This document shows, in pieces, positions 34,598 to 41,713 of a stretch of DNA of 57,015 nt (its first letter is position 1; every line of letters begins with the position of its first letter). Source of the DNA: a virus (Duplodnaviria > Heunggongvirae > Uroviricota > Caudoviricetes). Under the pieces are notes generated by a model, which saw only the letters and a program-made list of their open reading frames with translations, did no database searches and was not told the DNA's origin. The stretch is taken from the IMG/VR virus record IMGVR_UViG_2522572023_000010; one strand, given 5' to 3'. A program made the translations under genes and the position numbers.

Positions 34598-36448
34598 TTA
34601 TGCTGCCGGTGCATTTATCTCCAGCATCAGACTTTCTATCTCAACGCCATACGCTGCATTTTTTGTAACATCCGTCAGCGTCAGCGCATTCAGTCCCAGT
34701 GTCAGACTGTCTTTTATAACCTGGAATGCCGGGCCAGCCACTCCATTCAGTTTCGGAGTAACCGTGGTACTGCCGGCGGTGAACACCAGCTCCAGCGTCT
34801 GCCAGTCGTTACCGTAATCGCCGAACTCCCCCAGCTTCGTGTTTCCGGCTTTCCTGTGATGCATCAGATTCACTCTGCCGTCAGTGGTCTGAGTGAAGTA
34901 CGACATCAGGAACGGATTACCGGTACCCGTCATCGCCACACCATCAGGAACGGGAGCATCCGTATACAGATAAATCCCCAGCCCGAACTGATTGTTGGTC
35001 AGTGCGCCTGACAGGCGGAACTTACAGGTCAGTCTGCCGCCCTGTGTCAGCAGGGTAATTGCGTCATCCACCGGATGCGTCAGGGACCAGGTTTTATTGC
35101 TCTGCTTGGTGATCTTAAATACACCATCTGACAACTGAATTCCGCCATCCTTAATGCTCCAGCCCTGCGCAGCAGCCTCTCCGGCTGCCGGCAGCAGGGA
35201 GATTGTGCGAACGGACGTATCTGCAGACGGACCCGATGGCGTGTTGCCGCCGGGCGAGGGTTTGATTTCCGGTGCCTTACCACTGATGAAGGCTGAGGTG
35301 CGCCCGGCTGCGTTCAGAATAGCGGTTGCCAGACGATCCGGAATAATGCTCCTGCGCGCCCATGAACTGAAATGTGTCGGGCGGTTTGATGATACCTGGT
35401 TTCCATTCGTTCTCGATGCCGCACCGTAATATCCTGATGCCGGAATATCCGGATCTTCTGCCGGCGCGTTAGTGGCGGTATTGACGCCGTTACCGTCTGT
35501 CATGAAGGGCACAAAATAAACGCCCTCACTCTCCCTGTTTTTATACCCGCCGTACACGGTGTCGTACTGGGTAGCGTATGTATTTTTCCAGTAATACGTC
35601 GTGTCACCACAAATCCACGGCACATCTGCAGCACTGCCACCATGGCACTGCGCGTTAAACACGGAGAGGTCAGCACGAAACTGTGTCAGCATGGCTGTAA
35701 ACAGCGCAGGTTGCTGTGCGTGGGTGGCGGCGCTCATGTCAAACTCACCCTGCATCCAGCAGACGGCCAGCAGAACGTTTTTGGGATTTTTCTGCAATGC
35801 CGCTTTTGTGCGGGAAATCAGATCCTGATATAACGGCTTGCCCACCCCCCAGCGTGCCGAATCCTGACTGGCCCCCGTGGACTCGCTGAATGTCCCCTCC
35901 GCGCCCTGGGTAAATGCCGAACCACCACGACAGCATGGTACCAGCAGGATCCCCGCGTTATTCGGGATATACGGGAGCAGTTTTTTGGCAATATGTAAAC
36001 CCTGACCGACACAGCCGTACTGCCCTTTGCTCAGGTCAGCCCTCGGATGATTCAGCGTACTCATATCCTGCACATCATGCAGACAGTGGTCAGCCGGAAT
36101 AATATCGTTATATCTGCAGGCAGCCCCGCCCGGCGTCACTGTACTGCGGCGCGCCAGCTGTTTAATGCGCGGATCCGGAGCATCGTATGAATCCGGCAGC
36201 GGAAGCCCTTCACCGTAAGCCATGGCATTGGACTGCCCGGCCAGTACGATGACGTAGTACCAATCCGGCTCAGATGAAGGGCCGACCTGTGGCTCTCCTT
36301 CAATAGCCACCGCCTGCATCAGTGTGTACGGCGTAATGGCAACCGGTCCGCCGTATGGCTGCCAGCCCTCTTTCAGTTTGTGTGTCAGCTTTTCCGCAAG
36401 GTCTGACGGCGACGCCGCCCTGACAACATCATAATGTTTAATCGACAT
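34598..36448 (-). CDS. nanS-p: prophage sialate O-acetylesterase (NanS-p-like; DUF1737 N-terminus plus SASA esterase)
   Basis: 616 aa beginning MSIKHYDVVRAASPSDLAEKLTHKLKEGWQPYGGP; downstream of the stx slot as in Stx phages. Confidence 0.8.
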   Translation of the reverse strand: MSIKHYDVVRAASPSDLAEKLTHKLKEGWQPYGGPVAITPYTLMQAVAIEGEPQVGPSSEPDWYYVIVLAGQSNAMAYGEGLPLPDSYDAPDPRIKQLARRSTVTPGGAACRYNDIIPADHCLHDVQDMSTLNHPRADLSKGQYGCVGQGLHIAKKLLPYIPNNAGILLVPCCRGGSAFTQGAEGTFSESTGASQDSARWGVGKPLYQDLISRTKAALQKNPKNVLLAVCWMQGEFDMSAATHAQQPALFTAMLTQFRADLSVFNAQCHGGSAADVPWICGDTTYYWKNTYATQYDTVYGGYKNRESEGVYFVPFMTDGNGVNTATNAPAEDPDIPASGYYGAASRTNGNQVSSNRPTHFSSWARRSIIPDRLATAILNAAGRTSAFISGKAPEIKPSPGGNTPSGPSADTSVRTISLLPAAGEAAAQGWSIKDGGIQLSDGVFKITKQSNKTWSLTHPVDDAITLLTQGGRLTCKFRLSGALTNNQFGLGIYLYTDAPVPDGVAMTGTGNPFLMSYFTQTTDGRVNLMHHRKAGNTKLGEFGDYGNDWQTLELVFTAGSTTVTPKLNGVAGPAFQVIKDSLTLGLNALTLTDVTKNAAYGVEIESLMLEINAPAA

Positions 36449-36926
36449 CGAATTTCTCCCGTGTACAGGAACAGAGTTAAAAAGCCGGAACCGGAATCAA
36501 ATCACAGGATGACCATCTGCCAGTGGCTGGTCGTAAAAAAAAGGCCGCGCCATGCGCAGCCGAAAATAAAGGGATAACGATGATAGTTTGAGAAAAACAG
36601 AAATAACACTTTTGTGGCAAAGCATGGTGCCGGGTGCCTCCCGGTGAATTCAGTACCAGCACCTGAATCCGCGATTATCCCATATACCTACTCGCTGATT
36701 GCCCCTCCGCACAGGGGGATTCACCATGCAGTAGTATTTTTAATAAACAGTAAACAAAAAAATCAAGCATTATGCAGGCTGTTTCTTTTTATCACCGGCC
36801 ACAGCAATACCACAATGCCGCAGACCAGCACCCCATCCGCCAGCACCGACATGATTCTGCTGGTGAAATCCACCATCACCACCAGAAACAGCAGGAGTGC
36901 AGCCACAGCCAGGCGCAGTTTTACCG

Positions 36927-37358
36927 TCACTGGTGATTCTCCAGACGAAGACCCAGAACACCGGCAATCTCTTCCAGCACCTTGCGCTCTTCCGGCTCAA
37001 TTTCGCCGTCTGCCTCCGCAATGGCCACCGCCACATCCAGCACATCTTCCGCTTCACGCGTATCGTGTTTCACATCTTCAATTTCACGCAATGCCGCTCG
37101 ACGACCAATTTTAAAGTTCGTATCCAGCTGACCGATAATGGTTGCGCTAATCGCATTAATTTCTGACGTAAACGCGGACAACGCAGGCTGGTTACGCAAG
37201 ATCTGCTCGATCTTCGCTTTCTCTGAAGCCTCACATTCACCATCTGCATAGGCCACCAGATAGGCAGCATTAATAACCGCCTGTGCCAGATCACGTTTCT
37301 CAAACTTTTTAATTTCCACTGCCGCTCGGCGGGCTTTTTTACCAAAAATACCAAACAT
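36927..37358 (-). CDS. TerB-family (tellurite resistance-like) protein
   Basis: MFGIFGKKARRAAVEIKKFEKRDLAQAVINAAYLVAYADGECEASEKAKIEQIL... typical TerB; AAGGA ribosome-binding site before the internal ATG at 37358. Confidence 0.8.
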   Translation of the reverse strand: MFGIFGKKARRAAVEIKKFEKRDLAQAVINAAYLVAYADGECEASEKAKIEQILRNQPALSAFTSEINAISATIIGQLDTNFKIGRRAALREIEDVKHDTREAEDVLDVAVAIAEADGEIEPEERKVLEEIAGVLGLRLENHQ

Positions 37359-37489
37359 CGTGACGTTCCTTTGGGTGGGTGAGCCAACGCCCGGGAGCGA
37401 TCTGCCCACAGAGAAAGTCACACTGACCACTCCGTAAGCTCACCCCCGAAAGGCTCTGTGGTTGATATGCGCCGGGCGTGGCGCGGATA

Positions 37490-37513
37490 CAAAAAAGGCC
37501 GCCAATAGCGACC
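37490..37513 (-). terminator. intrinsic terminator-like hairpin plus T-run (one copy of a 30-bp direct repeat)
   Basis: ggatacaaaaaaGGCCGCCaataGCGACC; paired with a near-identical element at 38071-38101. Confidence 0.5.
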
Positions 37514-37547
37514 TCAGTTACGGGATTATTCTGGGGTTAAACGACTG

Positions 37548-37757
37548 TTACTCCCCCCAGACAAAATCATCACTTCCTGTTCGATGCGAGCCATAGTGAA
37601 CCTCGTACTTATCTCCCATCTTTCTTGCTTCCGTTTCTGCGTCTTCCTCTGTCGCAAAAACCCCAACAAGATGCCAGGGCGAGCTTCTTACCACAGCCCA
37701 ACCTTTAACCCATCCTTTGTTGTCCTTATCTTCCATTAACACTTCAGAAACAAACAT
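37548..37757 (-). CDS. hypothetical 69-aa protein in the stx slot
   Basis: ORF track; no motif recognised. Confidence 0.5.
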   Translation of the reverse strand: MFVSEVLMEDKDNKGWVKGWAVVRSSPWHLVGVFATEEDAETEARKMGDKYEVHYGSHRTGSDDFVWGE

Positions 37758-37809
37758 ATTTATCTCCTTGTGGGTACCCAGAGATATTTTATGATTGCTC
37801 CCGGTCAGA

Positions 37810-38034
37810 TCAATAAAGTGGCTTCAATTTTGCCTTAATGATCAAATCAGGGTGATTGACGGAATCGTACACCACCTCAATATTTTCATCCGTGGCGTCG
37901 ATAAGATATTCTTTTACATAAGGACCTGTTGATTTTCCATGAAATACATCTTCAACAAGTACACTCTCCCCCTGAACAACACGAAAACTAACTTCTGTTT
38001 CGAACGGACCAATCGTCACCATCAGTTTTTTCAC
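37810..38034 (-). CDS. hypothetical 74-aa protein in the stx slot
   Basis: ORF track; no motif recognised. Confidence 0.5.
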   Translation of the reverse strand: MKKLMVTIGPFETEVSFRVVQGESVLVEDVFHGKSTGPYVKEYLIDATDENIEVVYDSVNHPDLIIKAKLKPLY

Positions 38035-38076
38035 ATAGCCTCCTGATAAGCACTCGATTTATTAGTTAATGGTGTA

Positions 38077-38101
38077 ACGCAGATACAAAAAAAGGCCCGC
38101 A
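38077..38101 (-). terminator. intrinsic terminator after the tRNA cluster
   Basis: Minus strand reads GGCUCGC-UUUU-GCGGGCC followed by UUUUUUU. Confidence 0.6.
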
Positions 38102-38124
38102 AAAGCGAGCCAAGTAAATAAATA

Positions 38125-38201
38125 TGGCGCGTTGTACTGGATTCGAACCAGTGACCGATTGCTTAGAAGGCAATTGCTCTGTCCGACTGAGCTAACAACG
38201 C
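38125..38201 (-). tRNA. argO: tRNA-Arg (anticodon UCU)
   Basis: 77 nt GCGTTGTTAGCTCAGTCGGACAGAGCAATTGCCTTCTAAGCAATCGGTCACTGGTTCGAATCCAGTACAACGCGCCA; cloverleaf with anticodon loop CTTCTAA. Confidence 0.9.
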
Positions 38202-38214
38202 ATGATGCTGATAA

Positions 38215-38291
38215 TGGACCGCCATCGGGGACTTGAACCCCGCACAGCCAGCTTCGAAGGCTGACGCTCTATCCCGATGAGCTAATGGCGG
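38215..38291 (-). tRNA. argN: tRNA-Arg (anticodon UCG)
   Basis: 77 nt CCGCCATTAGCTCATCGGGATAGAGCGTCAGCCTTCGAAGCTGGCTGTGCGGGGTTCAAGTCCCCGATGGCGGTCCA; anticodon loop CTTCGAA. Confidence 0.85.
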
Positions 38292-38298
38292 TATGTGA

Positions 38299-38374
38299 TG
38301 GTGGCCCTTGCTGGATTTGAACCAGCGACCTGGCGATTATGAGTCGCTCGCTCTCACCACTGAGCTAAAGGGCC
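38299..38374 (-). tRNA. ileZ: tRNA-Ile2 (anticodon CAU, lysidine type; formally Met-like)
   Basis: 76 nt GGCCCTTTAGCTCAGTGGTGAGAGCGAGCGACTCATAATCGCCAGGTCGCTGGTTCAAATCCAGCAAGGGCCACCA, close to E. coli tRNA-Ile2. Confidence 0.85.
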
Positions 38375-38745
38375 GGGCGCAGGATAATAACGGTACGTAA
38401 CTAATTCTGCAATATCATCCGTTCTGACTGACTACATTCTGAACTTCCCTGACCGTCTGCTCAAAACGCCCGCTCTCCAGCTCAACGCCAATTGCACGAC
38501 GCCCCAGCGCCATTGCTGCTTTGACGCTACGGACATAAAAAAGCCAGCCACTGGGGGAGGCTGGCGAAACTCGTAGAGCAAAAGTGTTGTTACACTAACT
38601 TCGTCACAGGGTTATCCTGCAATACTCAAAATACACAATATTTACAAAACTAATAGTATACAAGGCGATCTTTAAGATTTTGTTATAAATTATTGCCTTT
38701 CTCCTCTTTCCATGAGCTTTCTGGATAGCCACAGAATTCCGGGTA

Positions 38746-38770
38746 CAGAAAAACCCGCTCAGCGGCGGGT
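38746..38770 (-). terminator. intrinsic terminator on the late strand (tR'-like) upstream of the tRNA block
   Basis: Minus strand reads ACCCGC-loop-GCGGGU followed by UUUUU. Confidence 0.5.
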
Positions 38771-38890
38771 TTAAGTTGTGTGGCGAAGTAACCACTCTTA
38801 ACACGATATAATACTTTTTGCGTACGCGTTAGGATTTTTATAAACTATGCGTCCCCATTCTCGCTATCTTTAGTCGGTCCTGGAATACAC

Positions 38891-39817
38891 ATGAAAGTTA
38901 GAAGCATAGGATTTACAATAAATAACAATAACAAAAATATTAATACCGTTGACGTAATGAATGCTTTTATCAACGCATCAAACAGAGAACACAGTCGCAC
39001 AGACTATACTCGTAAAATTCTCATTTCGGATGTGAATGATTTCTATTATGGATTAGTTGTCACATTCAGAAACCAAAAAAAGAACTGTAAGTCGCAATTT
39101 GTTGATGGTAAATTCCAGCTTAAAATTGAAGATCTTCAAGGAAGTGACAAACTTGCTAATTTCAACTTTTTCTTAATTAAAAAATCTAATCTTTCTGGTC
39201 TCTATATGTATCACCACGGTTCATGCAGTCTGAACACTCTCTTTTCTCATTTAGAAACAATAAGTAATGAATTTATCAGAAATCAAAATAAAGAAGAAAT
39301 AAAAAAACTTGGTGATAAACCAAAACAAAAAGAAGTAACTGCAATAAATAAAAAATACAAAGAAAGACTGACTTTCAGCCTTATGACAAATAAAAACAAC
39401 ATTCAGAGTGTTTTATGTCAATTCAAAGAGATTAAAAGCACAAGCTTTAAATTTAATTATATAGATTTTAAAGGTGGACCAATGACTGCGCTTGAACAAT
39501 TTGTTAACACCACCACAATAGATATGAATTTTAATTCTAGCGACAGAACAAAAGTGCAACAACTATCTCAGAATCTTTCAAATATTTATAATTCTATGAG
39601 TGGAGTTGCTAAAGCACAGGTTATTGCAGTAAACCATGCAGGAATAGAAAAAACCATTGATTTTATGAACTGCCCTGTTTTTTTTGAAACATACGATTTC
39701 GATATAATTGCCGATAAAGTCAATGGATTGACAAACGATAATTATACAACAAACCCTGTTTTTGATATGATAAAAGAAGAAATGCTGAACGGGACGAATA
39801 AAAATGCCTTTATATGA
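38891..39817 (+). CDS. hypothetical 308-aa soluble protein, first gene of an AT-rich two-gene cassette (candidate defence or accessory system)
   Basis: Long ORF with Asn/Lys/Ile-rich, AT-rich coding sequence; TATAAT at 38807-38812 upstream; overlaps the next ORF by 14 nt. Confidence 0.65.
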   Translation: MKVRSIGFTINNNNKNINTVDVMNAFINASNREHSRTDYTRKILISDVNDFYYGLVVTFRNQKKNCKSQFVDGKFQLKIEDLQGSDKLANFNFFLIKKSNLSGLYMYHHGSCSLNTLFSHLETISNEFIRNQNKEEIKKLGDKPKQKEVTAINKKYKERLTFSLMTNKNNIQSVLCQFKEIKSTSFKFNYIDFKGGPMTALEQFVNTTTIDMNFNSSDRTKVQQLSQNLSNIYNSMSGVAKAQVIAVNHAGIEKTIDFMNCPVFFETYDFDIIADKVNGLTNDNYTTNPVFDMIKEEMLNGTNKNAFI

Positions 39818-40352
39818 ATGGCTAATAAATAAAAGATTGAGGTATCAGTACCTTACACTGCTTGCATTCTCGATCCTGGCATTGCTTGCACTTTACCTAT
39901 TGTACAGAAACACACCTAAAGTAAGTGTTAACTTTTTTGATTTTTATCATAAAAACTTACGAGGCTATCTCTTCTCCGGTTTTATTTCCGTGGGCTCATT
40001 TTTATTGAGCCTGCATACCTTTGTCATAATAAATTTACGCGATAAGGTTTTTGCAACTCAGGAATATAAGGAAATTTATAGCATTGCCACTGGTATACCT
40101 ATTGACAAAATCAATGATAGTGTACTTTATAAACCTTTAGACAATTTATCCTCATTTATTAATACATCAATATTATGTTCTATCACAACAGCAATTGCAC
40201 AATTCACTATTGGACTTTCAACTAATTTATATGCATGCTTATTTTGCGTATGGCTTGCAATACTAACGGTATTTCTTTTATTACATTGCCTCATCATAAT
40301 CAGACAAAATATTAAAATTTTATTAAAGCAACAGAGAAAAAAAGGGGGGTAA
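39804..40352 (+). CDS. hypothetical 182-aa membrane protein with about four hydrophobic helices, second gene of the cassette
   Basis: Hydrophobic segments LTLLAFSILALLALYLLY, GYLFSGFISVGSFLLSLHTFVII, SILCSITTAIAQFTIGL, LYACLFCVWLAILTVFLLL; start overlaps the upstream gene. Confidence 0.65.
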   Translation: MPLYEWLINKRLRYQYLTLLAFSILALLALYLLYRNTPKVSVNFFDFYHKNLRGYLFSGFISVGSFLLSLHTFVIINLRDKVFATQEYKEIYSIATGIPIDKINDSVLYKPLDNLSSFINTSILCSITTAIAQFTIGLSTNLYACLFCVWLAILTVFLLLHCLIIIRQNIKILLKQQRKKGG

Positions 40353-40364
40353 TTCCCCCTAATA

Positions 40365-40706
40365 TTACAACATTGAAAGCACACCATCCAGAAAACCAAG
40401 AGCTGTTTGCAACTCTTTTCTTATTGTCCCATCAGAACACTTCTGCTTCTTTGCAATAGTTCTTAGTGAGATGCCGATAACAAAATGAGCAATAACCAAC
40501 TCATACTCTTCGGGCTTATATTTCCGCAATCGCGCAACACAGCTGTCAATCATGATTCCTTCATCATCATCGCATTGTTGGCGTGTTTTCTTTCCATGAG
40601 GTAGTAAACCTTTAAACCCTGCAGCAACAGGCTGCCAGTCCACACCACTGTTATCTGCTGCAGCCCATGCACCCCAGCGGTCCAATACTTCATACATATC
40701 ACGCAT
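40365..40706 (-). CDS. Q: late-gene antiterminator Q (QuuD / phage 82-type)
   Basis: MRDMYEVLDRWGAWAA...VAAGFKGLLP...CDDDEGIMIDSCVARL...CSDGTIRK closely parallels DLP12 QuuD. Confidence 0.85.
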   Translation of the reverse strand: MRDMYEVLDRWGAWAAADNSGVDWQPVAAGFKGLLPHGKKTRQQCDDDEGIMIDSCVARLRKYKPEEYELVIAHFVIGISLRTIAKKQKCSDGTIRKELQTALGFLDGVLSML

Positions 40707-40723
40707 CAACTTTCTCCACAAAA

Positions 40724-41713
40724 TCAGGCCAGCACGCCAATTGCCAGTGCACGATCGATAAAACGAAATATCAGCTCCAGCTGGGAGCCATACTTCTCTT
40801 CAAATGCCACGGTATCCGCATGCAGCTCGTCGTGATGCTTTCTGCACAAAGGCAACACAAAGAGGTCATGCGCTTTTGTAGCCATTCCACCCTGACCGTG
40901 ACCTATCAGGTGGTGGGGATCATCAGCAGGTTTTCCACAACATGCGCACGGCTGCGTCTTAACCCATCGCGTGTACTTTTCATTAACCCAGCGGCGACGT
41001 TTTGGGCGTAACATAAAAGACTCCGGCGACTCCGGATCCACTTTCAGCGCCAGCACCTTTTTTGCCTTATCCTGGATGATGCTGGTGGCAGGAACCGAAG
41101 GCACAAGGTCACTTTCCCGGGTGACAGACGGCACAACAGGCTTCGGTAATCTCAGTGCCTTACGGGCTGCACTTTCCGGTAAGGCATCCGCCAGATCATT
41201 ACGAATCAGCCACCAGCACAGTTCCGGCATTGTCACAACGTGACTGTCATCAAAACCGAGATCCCGACGCACGACAGACAACACCCAGCGGGCACAGTTA
41301 TCCGTTGCCATTGACTCCAGCCGTTCCGTGAACTGATCACGCAGCTGGTTATCGCAGTGCCAGCACAGACGGATTGCGCCCGGCGCGTGTCGCATTGTGG
41401 TCATGTTCTCGCTGTGCCAGTCGGAATGAGGCCACTGACAGCCCTTTTCACGAAGTAACCAGCTTTCAAGGCATTCCACGCCACCAGCACGACGGATCAC
41501 TGCCTCATTGCGGAACACGGCCCGAACGACAGGATCATCCGCCAGCGGTTGTGATGCCGCCGGAACGGCACCACTGGCGAAAGATGAATAACGTTCCGGC
41601 TCAGGCTCCAGCAGGACACGCCCCTGCATAAACAGGGGCATCAGCTCTGAACCTAGCCTGAACAACACGATCCCCATACGTGGGGCAATTTCAGGGGGCA
41701 GTAGTGCTCTCAA
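40724..41713 (-). CDS. DUF968-type prophage protein with C-terminal HNH-like Cys/His cluster
   Basis: 329 aa; ...QPCACCGKPADDPHHLIGHGQGG...CRKHHDELH. Confidence 0.65.
   Translation of the reverse strand: MRALLPPEIAPRMGIVLFRLGSELMPLFMQGRVLLEPEPERYSSFASGAVPAASQPLADDPVVRAVFRNEAVIRRAGGVECLESWLLREKGCQWPHSDWHSENMTTMRHAPGAIRLCWHCDNQLRDQFTERLESMATDNCARWVLSVVRRDLGFDDSHVVTMPELCWWLIRNDLADALPESAARKALRLPKPVVPSVTRESDLVPSVPATSIIQDKAKKVLALKVDPESPESFMLRPKRRRWVNEKYTRWVKTQPCACCGKPADDPHHLIGHGQGGMATKAHDLFVLPLCRKHHDELHADTVAFEEKYGSQLELIFRFIDRALAIGVLA

What the first reader, a model, noticed from the sequence alone, without database searches (positions are those of the whole stretch)
36927..38374. Stx-phage architecture with the toxin slot occupied by two small unknown ORFs bracketed by a 30-bp direct repeat
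The order Q, tRNA-Ile2 / Arg(UCG) / Arg(UCU), cargo slot, TerB-like gene, NanS-p esterase, holin, SAR endolysin, Rz/Rz1 is the layout of Shiga-toxin phages, yet no stxA/stxB-like ORFs are present. Instead the slot between the tRNAs and the TerB-like gene holds two small genes (74 and 69 aa, no motif recognised). They are flanked by near-identical terminator-like elements: agatacaaaaaaaggcccgcaaaagcgagcc at 38071-38101 and ggatacaaaaaaggccgccaatagcgacc at 37486-37513. The repeated boundary element suggests a cassette-exchange site.
Basis: partly seen in the sequence, partly recalled or inferred. Interest (0 to 1): 0.55.

Follow-up and report, generated by a model that had tools for sequence, protein, structure and literature searches.

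The report
Two-gene accessory cassette in Shiga-toxin slot
A non-toxigenic lambda-like prophage of E. coli O145:H28 carries, where Shiga-toxin phages carry stx, a 597-bp two-gene accessory cassette of unknown function bounded by two similar transcription terminators at which phages have swapped cargo; it is a new example of a known kind of phage "moron" rather than a new system.

Summary
No stx homologue is present.

Stx2 phages share only the tRNAs plus terminator 1. They rejoin the window at STnc100, so the toxin slot here holds two stacked modules: ORF74/ORF69 with terminator 2, and tciAB.

The cassette is a 597-bp indel.
- It is present in about 93-110 of 5,426 complete E. coli genomes.
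- The tRNA-terminator-tciA junction without it occurs in 807.
- A Salmonella prophage has the same cassette with both terminators but a different right flank.
- The shared tail GGCC-T6-GTATC joins at least 3 different left and 4 different right partners.

This is the known PR'-proximal moron site. Exchange at repeated regulatory hairpins has a precedent in T4-type phages.

ORF74 and ORF69 are a conserved pair in Enterobacterales prophages, always beside the lysis genes. The ORF69 domain also occurs fused to TIR, trypsin-like and Mrr effectors in defence islands. That hints at a phage-host conflict role, which is unproven.

The parts
40365..40721 (-). Late-gene antiterminator Q (RefSeq aa of it)
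   Evidence: PF06530 Phage_antitermQ, E = 2.5e-45. Annotated 'antiterminator Q family protein' in RM12761.
38125..38374 (-). tRNA cluster: Ile2 (CAT), Arg (TCG), Arg (TCT). This is the proximal anchor of the slot.
   Evidence: ARAGORN and Rfam tRNA. About 95-96% identical to ileZ-argN-argO of Stx2 phages.
38078..38111 (-). Terminator 1: hairpin GGCTCGC-TTTT-GCGGGCC, T7, tail GTATCTGCG. It terminates the tRNA cluster and is the left copy of the repeat.
   Evidence: Terminator scan. Folds at -13.8 kcal/mol, z = -4.1. Conserved upstream of stx2A in 933W and annotated there as a terminator. Homology with Stx2 phages ends at 38078.
37810..38034 (-). ORF74: 74 aa, GTG start 5 nt after AGGAGG, all-beta, no signal peptide or TM segment
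   Evidence: ORF list. phrog_2571, E = 1.9e-26. AlphaFold2 pLDDT 91, six strands. No significant PDB match. RefSeq WP_000735807.1, hypothetical.
37548..37757 (-). ORF69: 69 aa, motifs SPWHLxGV and YGSxRxGSDDF
37482..37515 (-). Terminator 2: hairpin GAGGTCGCT-ATT-GGCGGCCTT, T6, tail GTATCCGCG. This is the cassette's own terminator and the right copy of the repeat.
   Evidence: Terminator scan. Folds at -12.7 kcal/mol. Homology with phages Evi and JLK-2012 ends at 37514. Also present after ORF69 in Salmonella L017.
37497..38093 (.). The 597-bp insertion/deletion unit: leader, ORF74, ORF69 and terminator-2 hairpin. The boundaries can slide by about 19 nt within the repeat.
   Evidence: Alignment with the empty sites of the O121:H19 prophage and phage Evi. 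GC is 39-44% against 52-58% in the flanks.
36763..37358 (-). Second cargo module: tciA (TerB family, 36927-37358) and tciB (DUF3927, 36763-36930)
   Evidence: Pfam TerB E = 1.4e-16 and DUF3927 E = 4e-17. Named tciA/tciB in phage JLK-2012. Absent from 933W and PhiR49_2, which join terminator 1 (933W: via stx2AB) to the STnc100 element.
36589..36755 (-). STnc100 sRNA element, the distal anchor of the slot
   Evidence: Rfam RF02076, 101 bits, E = 8e-22. The same family lies directly downstream of stx2B in 933W and in all comparator phages.
34598..36448 (-). NanS-p-type esterase (DUF1737 + SASA + DUF6645), the conserved ORF after the slot
   Evidence: Pfam. Annotated 'SASA family carbohydrate esterase' in RefSeq.

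Best explanation
The interval is a terminator-bounded accessory cassette (a moron). It sits in the known moron insertion site downstream of PR'/Q of a lambdoid prophage of E. coli O145:H28. This is the site that holds stx1/stx2 in Shiga-toxin phages.

Shown:
- The slot runs from the tRNA-cluster terminator to the STnc100 sRNA.
- Here it contains two stacked modules: ORF74-ORF69-terminator 2 (a 597-bp indel) and tciA-tciB.
- The two terminators share the tail GGCC-T6/7-GTATC(T/C)GCG.
- Across phages, homology breaks fall exactly at this tail.

Inferred, expression:
- I found no convincing promoter for the cassette.
- It lies downstream of three intrinsic terminators in the late-operon direction.
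- ORF74 and ORF69 are therefore most likely expressed like stx, by Q-modified RNA polymerase reading through the terminators after prophage induction.
- At most a leak from the tRNA promoter would occur in lysogens.

Inferred, mobility:
- The cassette is gained and lost by recombination between the roughly 20-nt shared terminator tails. This could be short-homology recombination by phage or host recombinases, or slippage at hairpins.
- It does not use a dedicated integrase.

Inferred with low confidence, function:
- The two small cytoplasmic proteins act together.
- They probably act in phage-host or phage-phage conflict rather than as a toxin for the animal host.
- For example, ORF69 could be a free-standing copy of a sensor or regulatory domain that bacterial TIR, protease and nuclease defence effectors carry at their C-termini.
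For: Architecture:
- Searches give the parts.
- Stx2 phages match only 38078-38400.
- 933W has tRNAs, the same terminator, stx2AB and then STnc100.

Indel and distribution:
- Empty sites exist in phage Evi and in an O121:H19 prophage with the same Q and insert backbone. Alignment A4 defines the 597-bp indel flanked by the repeat.
- The cassette is in 93 genomes at >= 80% coverage, and in about 110 at >= 95% identity including partial copies, out of 5,426.
- The contiguous empty junction is in 807 of 5,426.
- The Salmonella prophage L017 carries the same module (about 93-96% identical) with both terminators, joined on the right to a different sequence.

Linker partners:
- The tail plus tciA leader follows the tRNA-Arg terminator in about 45 IMG/VR loci.
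- It follows ORF69 and terminator 2 in 9 loci.
- It follows a different 198-aa cargo with its own hairpin in L046.
- It follows tRNA-Gly in JLK-2012.
- Terminator 1 is followed by the tciA leader, the ORF74 leader, the stx2A leader or STnc100.

Footprint and composition:
- Ten tRNA-adjacent empty sites carry the terminator-2-type tail (T6-GTATCC). At least five of them (L028, L036, L064, L078, L135) combine it with the window-type terminator-1 hairpin. That is the product expected of a terminator 1 x terminator 2 crossover.
- The cassette has foreign base composition.

The pair:
- ORF74 and ORF69 are adjacent in mEp237 (after Rz), in Xenorhabdus, in Salmonella and in two metagenome phages.
- They are adjacent in 9 of 10 Enterobacterales species genomes.

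Conflict link:
- The ORF69 domain is fused to TIR, Trypsin_2, Mrr_cat and Imm53.
- These fusions lie beside type I R-M, AAA_13, ThsB-TIR and STAND-like NTPase genes.
- Acb2/Tad1-hairpin genes lie near the pair in two loci.

Literature:
- The PR' moron site with convergent sRNAs is described in PMC4104026.
- Recombination between repeated promoter/terminator stem-loops shuffles genes in T4-type phages, PMC2839356.
Against: - Expression by Q read-through is inferred from position only. No transcript data were examined.
- Within the window the two terminators share only an 11-nt exact core. BLAST significance is marginal. Intrinsic terminators resemble each other for functional reasons, and a third terminator at 36536-36546 matches equally well.
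- No recombination intermediate or recombinase dependence was shown. The direction of the event (insertion or deletion) is unknown.
- In every context found, the module's left neighbour is the same tRNA-Arg terminator. The left boundary is therefore less well tested than the right.
- No family, fold or motif assigns an activity to either protein.
- The ORF69 model is confident in only one of five AlphaFold runs.
- No second ORF69-type domain lies near the effector fusions.
- The consistent position next to lysis genes could instead indicate a lysis-related role.
Confidence: 0.7

Rival explanations
1. The two similar elements are simply two ordinary intrinsic terminators, one for the tRNA cluster and one for the cassette. 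Their resemblance is functional convergence. The cassette arrived by a single illegitimate recombination, and the repeat plays no part in exchange.
For: Both are canonical hairpin-plus-T-tract terminators. The hairpin stems differ. The exact core in this window is 11 nt, with blastn-short E = 0.27. An unrelated terminator at 36532-36561 matches the probe about as well.
Against: The shared part extends beyond what a terminator needs: GTATC(T/C)GCG follows the T-tract. It is conserved with both copies in Salmonella. Homology breaks in independent comparisons fall at this tail. Hybrid empty sites (terminator-1 hairpin with terminator-2 tail) exist. A third cargo with an unrelated hairpin is fused to the same tail.
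Confidence: 0.15
2. ORF74 and ORF69 are accessory lysis-module proteins, for example modulators of holin, endolysin or spanin timing, and are not conflict proteins.
For: In every phage context the pair lies directly before the holin or directly after Rz. ORF74-like genes alone sit immediately after Rz in Stx1a, Stx2a and Stx2c phages and H-19B, in one case with overlapping stop and start codons.
Against: Neither protein has a TM segment, signal peptide or lipobox, which lysis regulators usually have (sequences). The late-operon ends are generic moron sites. The ORF69 domain also occurs in non-phage chromosomal loci fused to TIR, protease and nuclease effectors. Most related prophages lack the pair.
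Confidence: 0.15
3. The pair is a prophage-encoded defence or superinfection-exclusion module that protects the lysogen, rather than a counter-defence used by the phage.
For: The ORF69 domain is found on defence-type effectors in defence islands. Prophage accessory slots often hold defence genes. The neighbouring tciAB and the plus-strand insert are also accessory cargo.
Against: No effector-like domain is present in either small protein. No promoter for lysogenic expression was detected above chance. The genes lie behind three terminators in the late operon. There are no PADLOC hits.
Confidence: 0.15
4. The pair is a small type II toxin-antitoxin or addiction module.
For: Two adjacent small genes on a mobile element. 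TA modules (RelE/HTH, HicAB, ParDE) occur in the same region of related prophages.
Against: There is no match to any TA family in Pfam, NCBIfam or PADLOC. A 52-nt spacer separates the genes rather than an overlap. ORF74 and ORF69 each occur alone in many phages. ORF74 is a plain beta-sandwich.
Confidence: 0.04

Closest known systems
The stx2 locus of Stx2-converting phages (933W, Sp5): the PR'-proximal moron insertion site (Tree et al. 2014, PMC4104026)
   Same: Same order: Q, PR' region, ileZ-argN-argO tRNAs, the same terminator, cargo, STnc100 with convergent sRNA region, nanS-p, lysis genes. The cargo is in the late-operon orientation behind terminators. Q-dependent read-through is therefore the expected mode of expression.
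   Different: The cargo is not stxAB. It is two cytoplasmic proteins without signal peptides, plus tciAB. The stx2 module has no terminator-2-type hairpin and tail after stxB. No AsxR or AgvB anti-sRNA is detected in this window.
Morons of lambdoid phages (the concept of Juhala/Hendrix, as cited in PMC4104026 and PMC3252337)
   Same: Extra DNA lies between elements that are adjacent in related phages. It has its own terminator and foreign base composition.
   Different: No promoter of its own was detected. The flanking terminator tails are repeated and reused as junctions.
PeSL mobile regulatory cassettes of T4-type phages (Arbiol et al. 2010, PMC2839356)
   Same: Repeated regulatory stem-loop terminators flank small non-essential genes, and recombination between them produces insertion, deletion and replacement. 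This matches the pattern.
   Different: PeSLs include a strong early promoter and are numerous per genome. Here only the terminator and its tail are shared, in a temperate lambdoid late operon. Mini-circles were not tested.
Phage mEp237 gp60-gp61 (phrog_2571 / phrog_4280)
   Same: A homologous ORF74-like plus ORF69-like pair in the same order, with a conserved ribosome-binding region and followed by a similar terminator.
   Different: 35% and 65% protein identity. It is located after Rz near the right genome end, not between the tRNAs and the lysis genes.
C-terminal ORF69-like domains of TIR, trypsin-like and Mrr-type proteins in defence islands
   Same: The same conserved core, GW.V.R..PWH..G ... 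YG..R.G.DDF.
   Different: There the domain is the C-terminal appendage of an effector of 275-477 aa in a bacterial chromosome. Here it is a free-standing 69-aa phage protein paired with ORF74.

Membership tests
Shiga-toxin-converting phage | Carries stxA and stxB | tested here: not met
   tblastn with 933W Stx2A and Stx2B against the window gives best E = 0.7. No Stx-like ORF lies in the slot.
Shiga-toxin-converting phage | Late-region layout: Q, tRNAs (ileZ-argN-argO), terminator, cargo, STnc100 region, nanS-p, holin/endolysin/Rz | tested here: met
Moron at the PR'-proximal insertion site of lambdoid phages | DNA present between elements that are adjacent in related phages | tested here: met
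   Empty sites in phage Evi, in the O121:H19 prophage and in 807 of 5,426 E. coli genomes.
Moron at the PR'-proximal insertion site of lambdoid phages | Own factor-independent terminator | tested here: met
   Terminator 2 at 37482-37515 travels with the cassette in E. coli and Salmonella.
Moron at the PR'-proximal insertion site of lambdoid phages | Own sigma-70 promoter | tested here: inconclusive
   No promoter-like site lies in the 46-nt leader. The number of sites in the region is not above the shuffled expectation (13 against 11.4). No transcript data were examined.
Moron at the PR'-proximal insertion site of lambdoid phages | Base composition differing from the flanks | tested here: met
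   GC 39-44% against 52-58%.
PeSL-like mobile regulatory cassette system | Repeated terminator stem-loops flanking variable genes, with breakpoints at the repeats | tested here: met
PeSL-like mobile regulatory cassette system | Strong promoter as part of the repeat; excised mini-circles | not testable with these tools
   No promoter is evident. Circles would need PCR on induced lysogens.
Integron or other site-specific gene-cassette system | Dedicated recombinase next to the site, with attC/att-type recombination sites | tested here: not met
   No recombinase gene lies between Q and the lysis genes. The repeats are terminators, not imperfect palindromic att sites.
Type II toxin-antitoxin module | Similarity to a toxin or antitoxin family; tightly coupled gene pair | tested here: not met
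   No hits. A 52-nt spacer separates the genes. Each gene also occurs alone.
Known anti-phage defence systems (PADLOC) | Match to a defence-system protein model | tested here: not met
   ORF74 has none. ORF69 has only a chance-level Cas7c hit at E = 0.014.
Pfam DUF7336 | Score at or above the gathering cut-off (25 bits) | tested here: not met
   17.1 bits, with a partial match to profile positions 17-40 only.
Anti-defence (counter-immunity) protein | Inhibits a defence system, or binds its sensor or signal | not testable with these tools
   Only indirect evidence: the domain is shared with TIR, protease and nuclease effectors, and the pair lies near Acb2/Tad1-like genes in two loci.

The most novel reading that the evidence does not exclude
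ORF69 is a phage-borne, free-standing copy of a previously undescribed sensor or regulatory domain. Bacterial TIR, serine-protease and Mrr-nuclease immune effectors carry this domain at their C-termini. Together with its partner ORF74 it would form a new counter-defence pair, acting as a decoy or competitor for that domain. The pair rides in the same Q-controlled slot that carries Shiga toxin, and it moves between phages by recombination at a conserved terminator tail.
Probability: 0.2. Interest if true: 0.65.

Novelty: new member of a known kind. Interest (0 to 1): 0.35.

Why it matters
The case shows base by base how cargo is swapped at the position that makes E. coli phages toxigenic. The tRNA-cluster terminator and its GTATC tail act as a common joint for stx2, tciAB, the ORF74/ORF69 pair and at least one other cargo. 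This helps explain how stx-negative and stx-positive prophages with the same backbone arise in EHEC lineages such as O145, O26 and O121.

It also flags an uncharacterised protein domain, with 289 clusters at 50% identity. The domain is shared between phage accessory genes and TIR, protease and nuclease proteins in defence islands. That gives a concrete, testable lead for phage-immunity work.

The architecture itself is not new. The moron site, the terminators and the sRNA anchor are all known.

Tried and rejected
- **Toxin or Stx-like cargo.** Rejected. There is no similarity, and neither protein has a signal peptide.
- **TA module.** Rejected. There are no family hits, the genes are not coupled, and each occurs alone.
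- **Known defence system.** No PADLOC match.
- **Fold-based function.**
  - The ORF74 model is confident, but the best PDB hits are generic beta-sandwiches at E >= 0.15.
  - The weak top hits to AcrIIC1 and ClpS are not significant and were not used.
- **Effector-associated-domain hypothesis** (homotypic pairing between an effector and a neighbouring protein with the same domain). Not supported. No second ORF69-type domain was found in the three loci checked with the ORF69 profile (TIR, L019; trypsin, L140; Mrr, L141), nor in the trypsin-fusion locus L166 checked.
- **Pseudomonas phage upstream gene as an ORF74 homologue.** Rejected, hhalign probability 0.3%.
- **Literature searches.** Searches for DUF7336, the WP accessions, the old locus tags and the PHROG numbers found nothing.
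- **Partial cassette copy in O145 RM12581.** It is an IS-truncated remnant and is not informative.
- **Within-window statistics.** These alone could not establish that the two terminators are homologous. The comparative evidence was needed.
Full report
**What is in the window**

The window is 100% identical to a prophage of E. coli O145:H28 RM12761/RM13516 at about 2.74 Mb. The late operon runs on the minus strand. In transcription order:

- Q lies at 40721-40365 (PF06530).
- A low-GC (27-34%) pair of plus-strand ORFs lies at 38891-40352, with no family assignment.
- A methyltransferase remnant follows.
- The tRNAs are Ile2 (CAT), Arg (TCG) and Arg (TCT), at 38374-38125.
- Terminator 1 lies at 38111-38078.
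- ORF74 lies at 38034-37810. It has a GTG start behind an AGGAGG ribosome-binding site.
- ORF69 lies at 37757-37548.
- Terminator 2 lies at 37515-37482.
- The TerB-family gene lies at 37358-36927 and the DUF3927 gene at 36930-36763. They are named tciA and tciB in phage JLK-2012.
- An STnc100 sRNA element lies at 36755-36589 (Rfam, 101 bits).
- A further terminator lies at 36561-36543.
- The NanS-p-type esterase lies at 36448-34598.
- Holin and endolysin follow.

No stx homologue exists anywhere in the window.

**Checking the observation**

- One repeat copy is 10 nt from the stated position (38081-38111).
- The copies are about 83% identical over 34-35 nt with one gap, not near-identical. The exact core here is TTTTTTGTATC.
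- The TerB gene is cargo, not backbone.

Both copies are good intrinsic terminators on the late strand, at -13.8 and -12.7 kcal/mol. Inside this window alone the similarity is only modestly beyond chance.

- A probe with up to 3 mismatches gives 4 hits against 0.08 expected. One of those hits is an unrelated terminator.
- blastn-short gives E = 0.27.

The case for significance therefore rests on comparison with other genomes.

**The slot and its boundaries**

About 300 phage records, mostly Stx2-converting phages, match the window only at 38078-38400. That stretch is the tRNAs plus terminator 1. In 933W the same terminator is annotated as a 'possible rho-independent terminator upstream of the stx genes'. 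It is followed by stx2A and stx2B. Downstream of stx2B, homology with the window resumes at STnc100, next to AsxR.

Three comparators differ from the window as follows.

- Phage PhiR49_2 joins terminator 1 directly to STnc100. This is a fully empty slot.
- Phage Evi, phage JLK-2012 and an O121:H19 prophage join a tRNA terminator directly to the tciA leader. The O121:H19 prophage has the same Q and the same plus-strand insert as the window.

The toxin slot runs from the tRNA terminator to STnc100. In this window it holds two stacked modules: ORF74/ORF69 with terminator 2, and tciAB. Tree et al. describe this position as the moron insertion site downstream of PR', with convergent sRNAs between the moron and the next conserved ORF (PMC4104026).

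**The cassette as an indel**

Alignment with the empty sites defines a 597-bp indel, 38093-37497. It is flanked by GGCC-T6/7-GTATC(T/C)GCG. Its GC content is 39-44%, against 52-58% in the flanks.

| State in 5,426 complete E. coli genomes | Genomes |
|---|---|
| Cassette at >= 80% coverage | 93 |
| Cassette at >= 95% identity, including partial copies | about 110 |
| Contiguous tRNA-terminator-tciA junction (empty) | 807 |

The cassette copies are nearly clonal and occur mainly in O145:H28 and O26:H11. No phage record contains the cassette DNA.

A Salmonella enterica prophage carries the same module, with proteins 93-96% identical. It has the same terminator 1 after tRNA-Arg and the same terminator 2 with its T6-GTATCC tail. 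Immediately after that tail, its sequence differs from the window.

A scan of IMG/VR for GGCCTTTTTTGTATC recovered several combinations.

- In about 45 loci, the tail plus tciA leader follows the tRNA-Arg terminator.
- In 9 loci, it follows ORF69 and terminator 2.
- In one locus (L046), it follows a different cargo: a 198-aa membrane-anchored ORF downstream of tRNA-Thr/Gly, with an unrelated hairpin.

Terminator 1 therefore has at least four right-hand partners: the tciA leader, the ORF74 leader, the stx2A leader and STnc100. The tail plus tciA leader has at least three left-hand partners.

Ten tRNA-adjacent empty sites carry the terminator-2-type tail (T6-GTATCC). At least five of them (L028, L036, L064, L078, L135) combine it with the window-type terminator-1 hairpin. 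This is what a crossover between the two repeats would leave. The interpretation of a cassette-exchange joint is supported.

Nothing suggests a dedicated recombinase. Recombination between repeated regulatory stem-loops is already known to shuffle small genes in T4-type phages (PeSLs, PMC2839356).

**Expression (inferred)**

No promoter-like site lies in the 46-nt leader. Promoter-like sites in the region are not above the shuffled expectation. The genes sit in late-operon orientation behind terminators, as stx does. Q-dependent read-through after induction is the most likely mode of expression. Leak from the tRNA promoter is a possible minor source. I examined no transcript data.

**The two proteins**

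- ORF74 (phrog_2571) and ORF69 (phrog_4280) are annotated as hypothetical.
- Neither has a signal peptide or a membrane segment.
- ORF74 is modelled with confidence (pLDDT 91) as a six-stranded all-beta domain. It has no significant PDB neighbour.

The pair is conserved as a unit, in the same order and always next to the lysis genes.

- In mEp237 it is gp60/gp61, located after Rz, with 35% and 65% identity.
- It occurs in Xenorhabdus, in Salmonella and in two metagenomic phages.
- It occurs in 9 of 10 Enterobacterales species genomes that have an ORF69 homologue.

ORF74-like genes alone follow Rz in Stx1a, Stx2a and Stx2c phages and in H-19B. ORF69-like genes alone occur in Pseudomonas phages and in other Proteobacteria.

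**A functional lead**

A profile of ORF69 finds 289 clusters at 50% identity. Most of the retrieved members are free-standing proteins of 100 aa or fewer (126 of 166). About a dozen proteins longer than 200 aa carry the domain, mostly at the C-terminus.

- Partner domains include TIR (2), trypsin-like protease (at least 6), Mrr-type nuclease (1) and Imm53 (1). The conserved core GW.V.R..PWH..G...YG..R.G.DDF is intact in these fusions.
- The fusions are uninterrupted ORFs.
- They lie beside type I restriction-modification genes, AAA_13, ThsB-type TIR and a STAND-like NTPase.
- In two phage loci, Acb2/Tad1-hairpin genes lie within 1-3 kb of the pair.

This association suggests a role in phage-host conflict. 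ORF69 could be a decoy or competitor for a sensor or regulatory domain of immune effectors. That is inference only. No second copy of the domain lies near the fusions, so a homotypic-adaptor model is not supported. The constant position beside lysis genes keeps a lysis-accessory role open.

**Verdict**

It describes a further cargo at a known moron site, bounded by known terminators, with exchange of a kind already documented in principle.

Two things are new here.

- The base-level definition of the shared terminator tail as the joint for several cargos, including stx2.
- The link between the ORF69 domain and TIR, protease and nuclease effectors.

Novelty: new member of a known kind. Interest: 0.35.

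Noticed in passing
window 38891-40352 (+), with hairpin 40343-40360: Two overlapping plus-strand ORFs of 308 aa (phrog_2802) and 182 aa (several hydrophobic segments), at 27-34% GC. They are wedged antisense between the Q stop codon and the tRNA leader. They have no Pfam, NCBIfam or PADLOC family. The same pair is present in an O121:H19 prophage. At least 80% of 38380-40730 is found in 217 of 5,426 E. coli genomes. This looks like another accessory cassette, possibly for defence or exclusion. Q-driven late transcription would have to read through it in antisense.
   Followed up: partly
window about 38745-38830 (-) and 38535-38567 (-): A short hairpin with a T-run (AACCCGCCGCTGAGCGGGTTTTT) lies downstream of an AT-rich promoter-like stretch, and a second terminator follows. 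This resembles the PR'-tR' arrangement annotated in 933W. PR' may therefore lie about 1.5 kb from Q because of the plus-strand insert. This is inference only.
   Followed up: no
window 36589-36755 (-): An STnc100 sRNA (RF02076) is present, with an internal deletion relative to the model. No AgvB or AsxR anti-sRNA is detected in the window at E <= 0.1. By contrast, 933W has AsxR and the O121:H19 prophage has AgvB beside STnc100.
   Followed up: partly
L028, L036, L064, L078, L135 (IMG/VR), at the GGCCTTTTTTGTATC match: These empty tRNA-to-tciA junctions have the window-type terminator-1 hairpin and the terminator-2-type tail (T6-GTATCC). This is as expected for deletion of the cassette by a crossover between the two repeats.
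   Followed up: partly
L046 3372-4196, 5496-5649, 5939-6535, 6599-6614: A related prophage has a CPBP-like 274-aa membrane protein after Q. It then has tRNA-Thr/Gly, and then a different cargo: a 198-aa ORF with an N-terminal hydrophobic segment. That cargo ends in its own hairpin, fused to the same T6-GTATCC-GCGCCACGCC tail ahead of a 42%-identical tciA.
   Followed up: partly
L013 6891-7133; L014 5385-5678: Genes with the Acb2_Tad1_hairpin domain (PF24729, anti-CBASS/anti-Thoeris sponge family) lie 1-3 kb from the ORF74/ORF69 pair, in a Xenorhabdus prophage and in a metagenomic phage. L014 also has a SIR2_2 protein and a TerB gene upstream.
   Followed up: no
L166 3996-5183 and 5355-6758 (Bordetella petrii): A trypsin-like protease with a C-terminal ORF69-type domain is followed by a STAND-like NTPase (AAA_16/nSTAND1). 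This looks like an uncharacterised two-gene conflict system.
   Followed up: partly
P0026 (125 aa, E. coli): An ORF74-like domain is fused to DUF1737. DUF1737 is also the N-terminal domain of the NanS-p esterase that follows the slot.
   Followed up: no
L012 (O145:H28 RM12581) 3034-4509: In this strain the cassette is truncated by an IS3-family element just upstream of ORF69, and the TerB gene carries an internal stop. This is a decaying copy of the same prophage region.
   Followed up: yes
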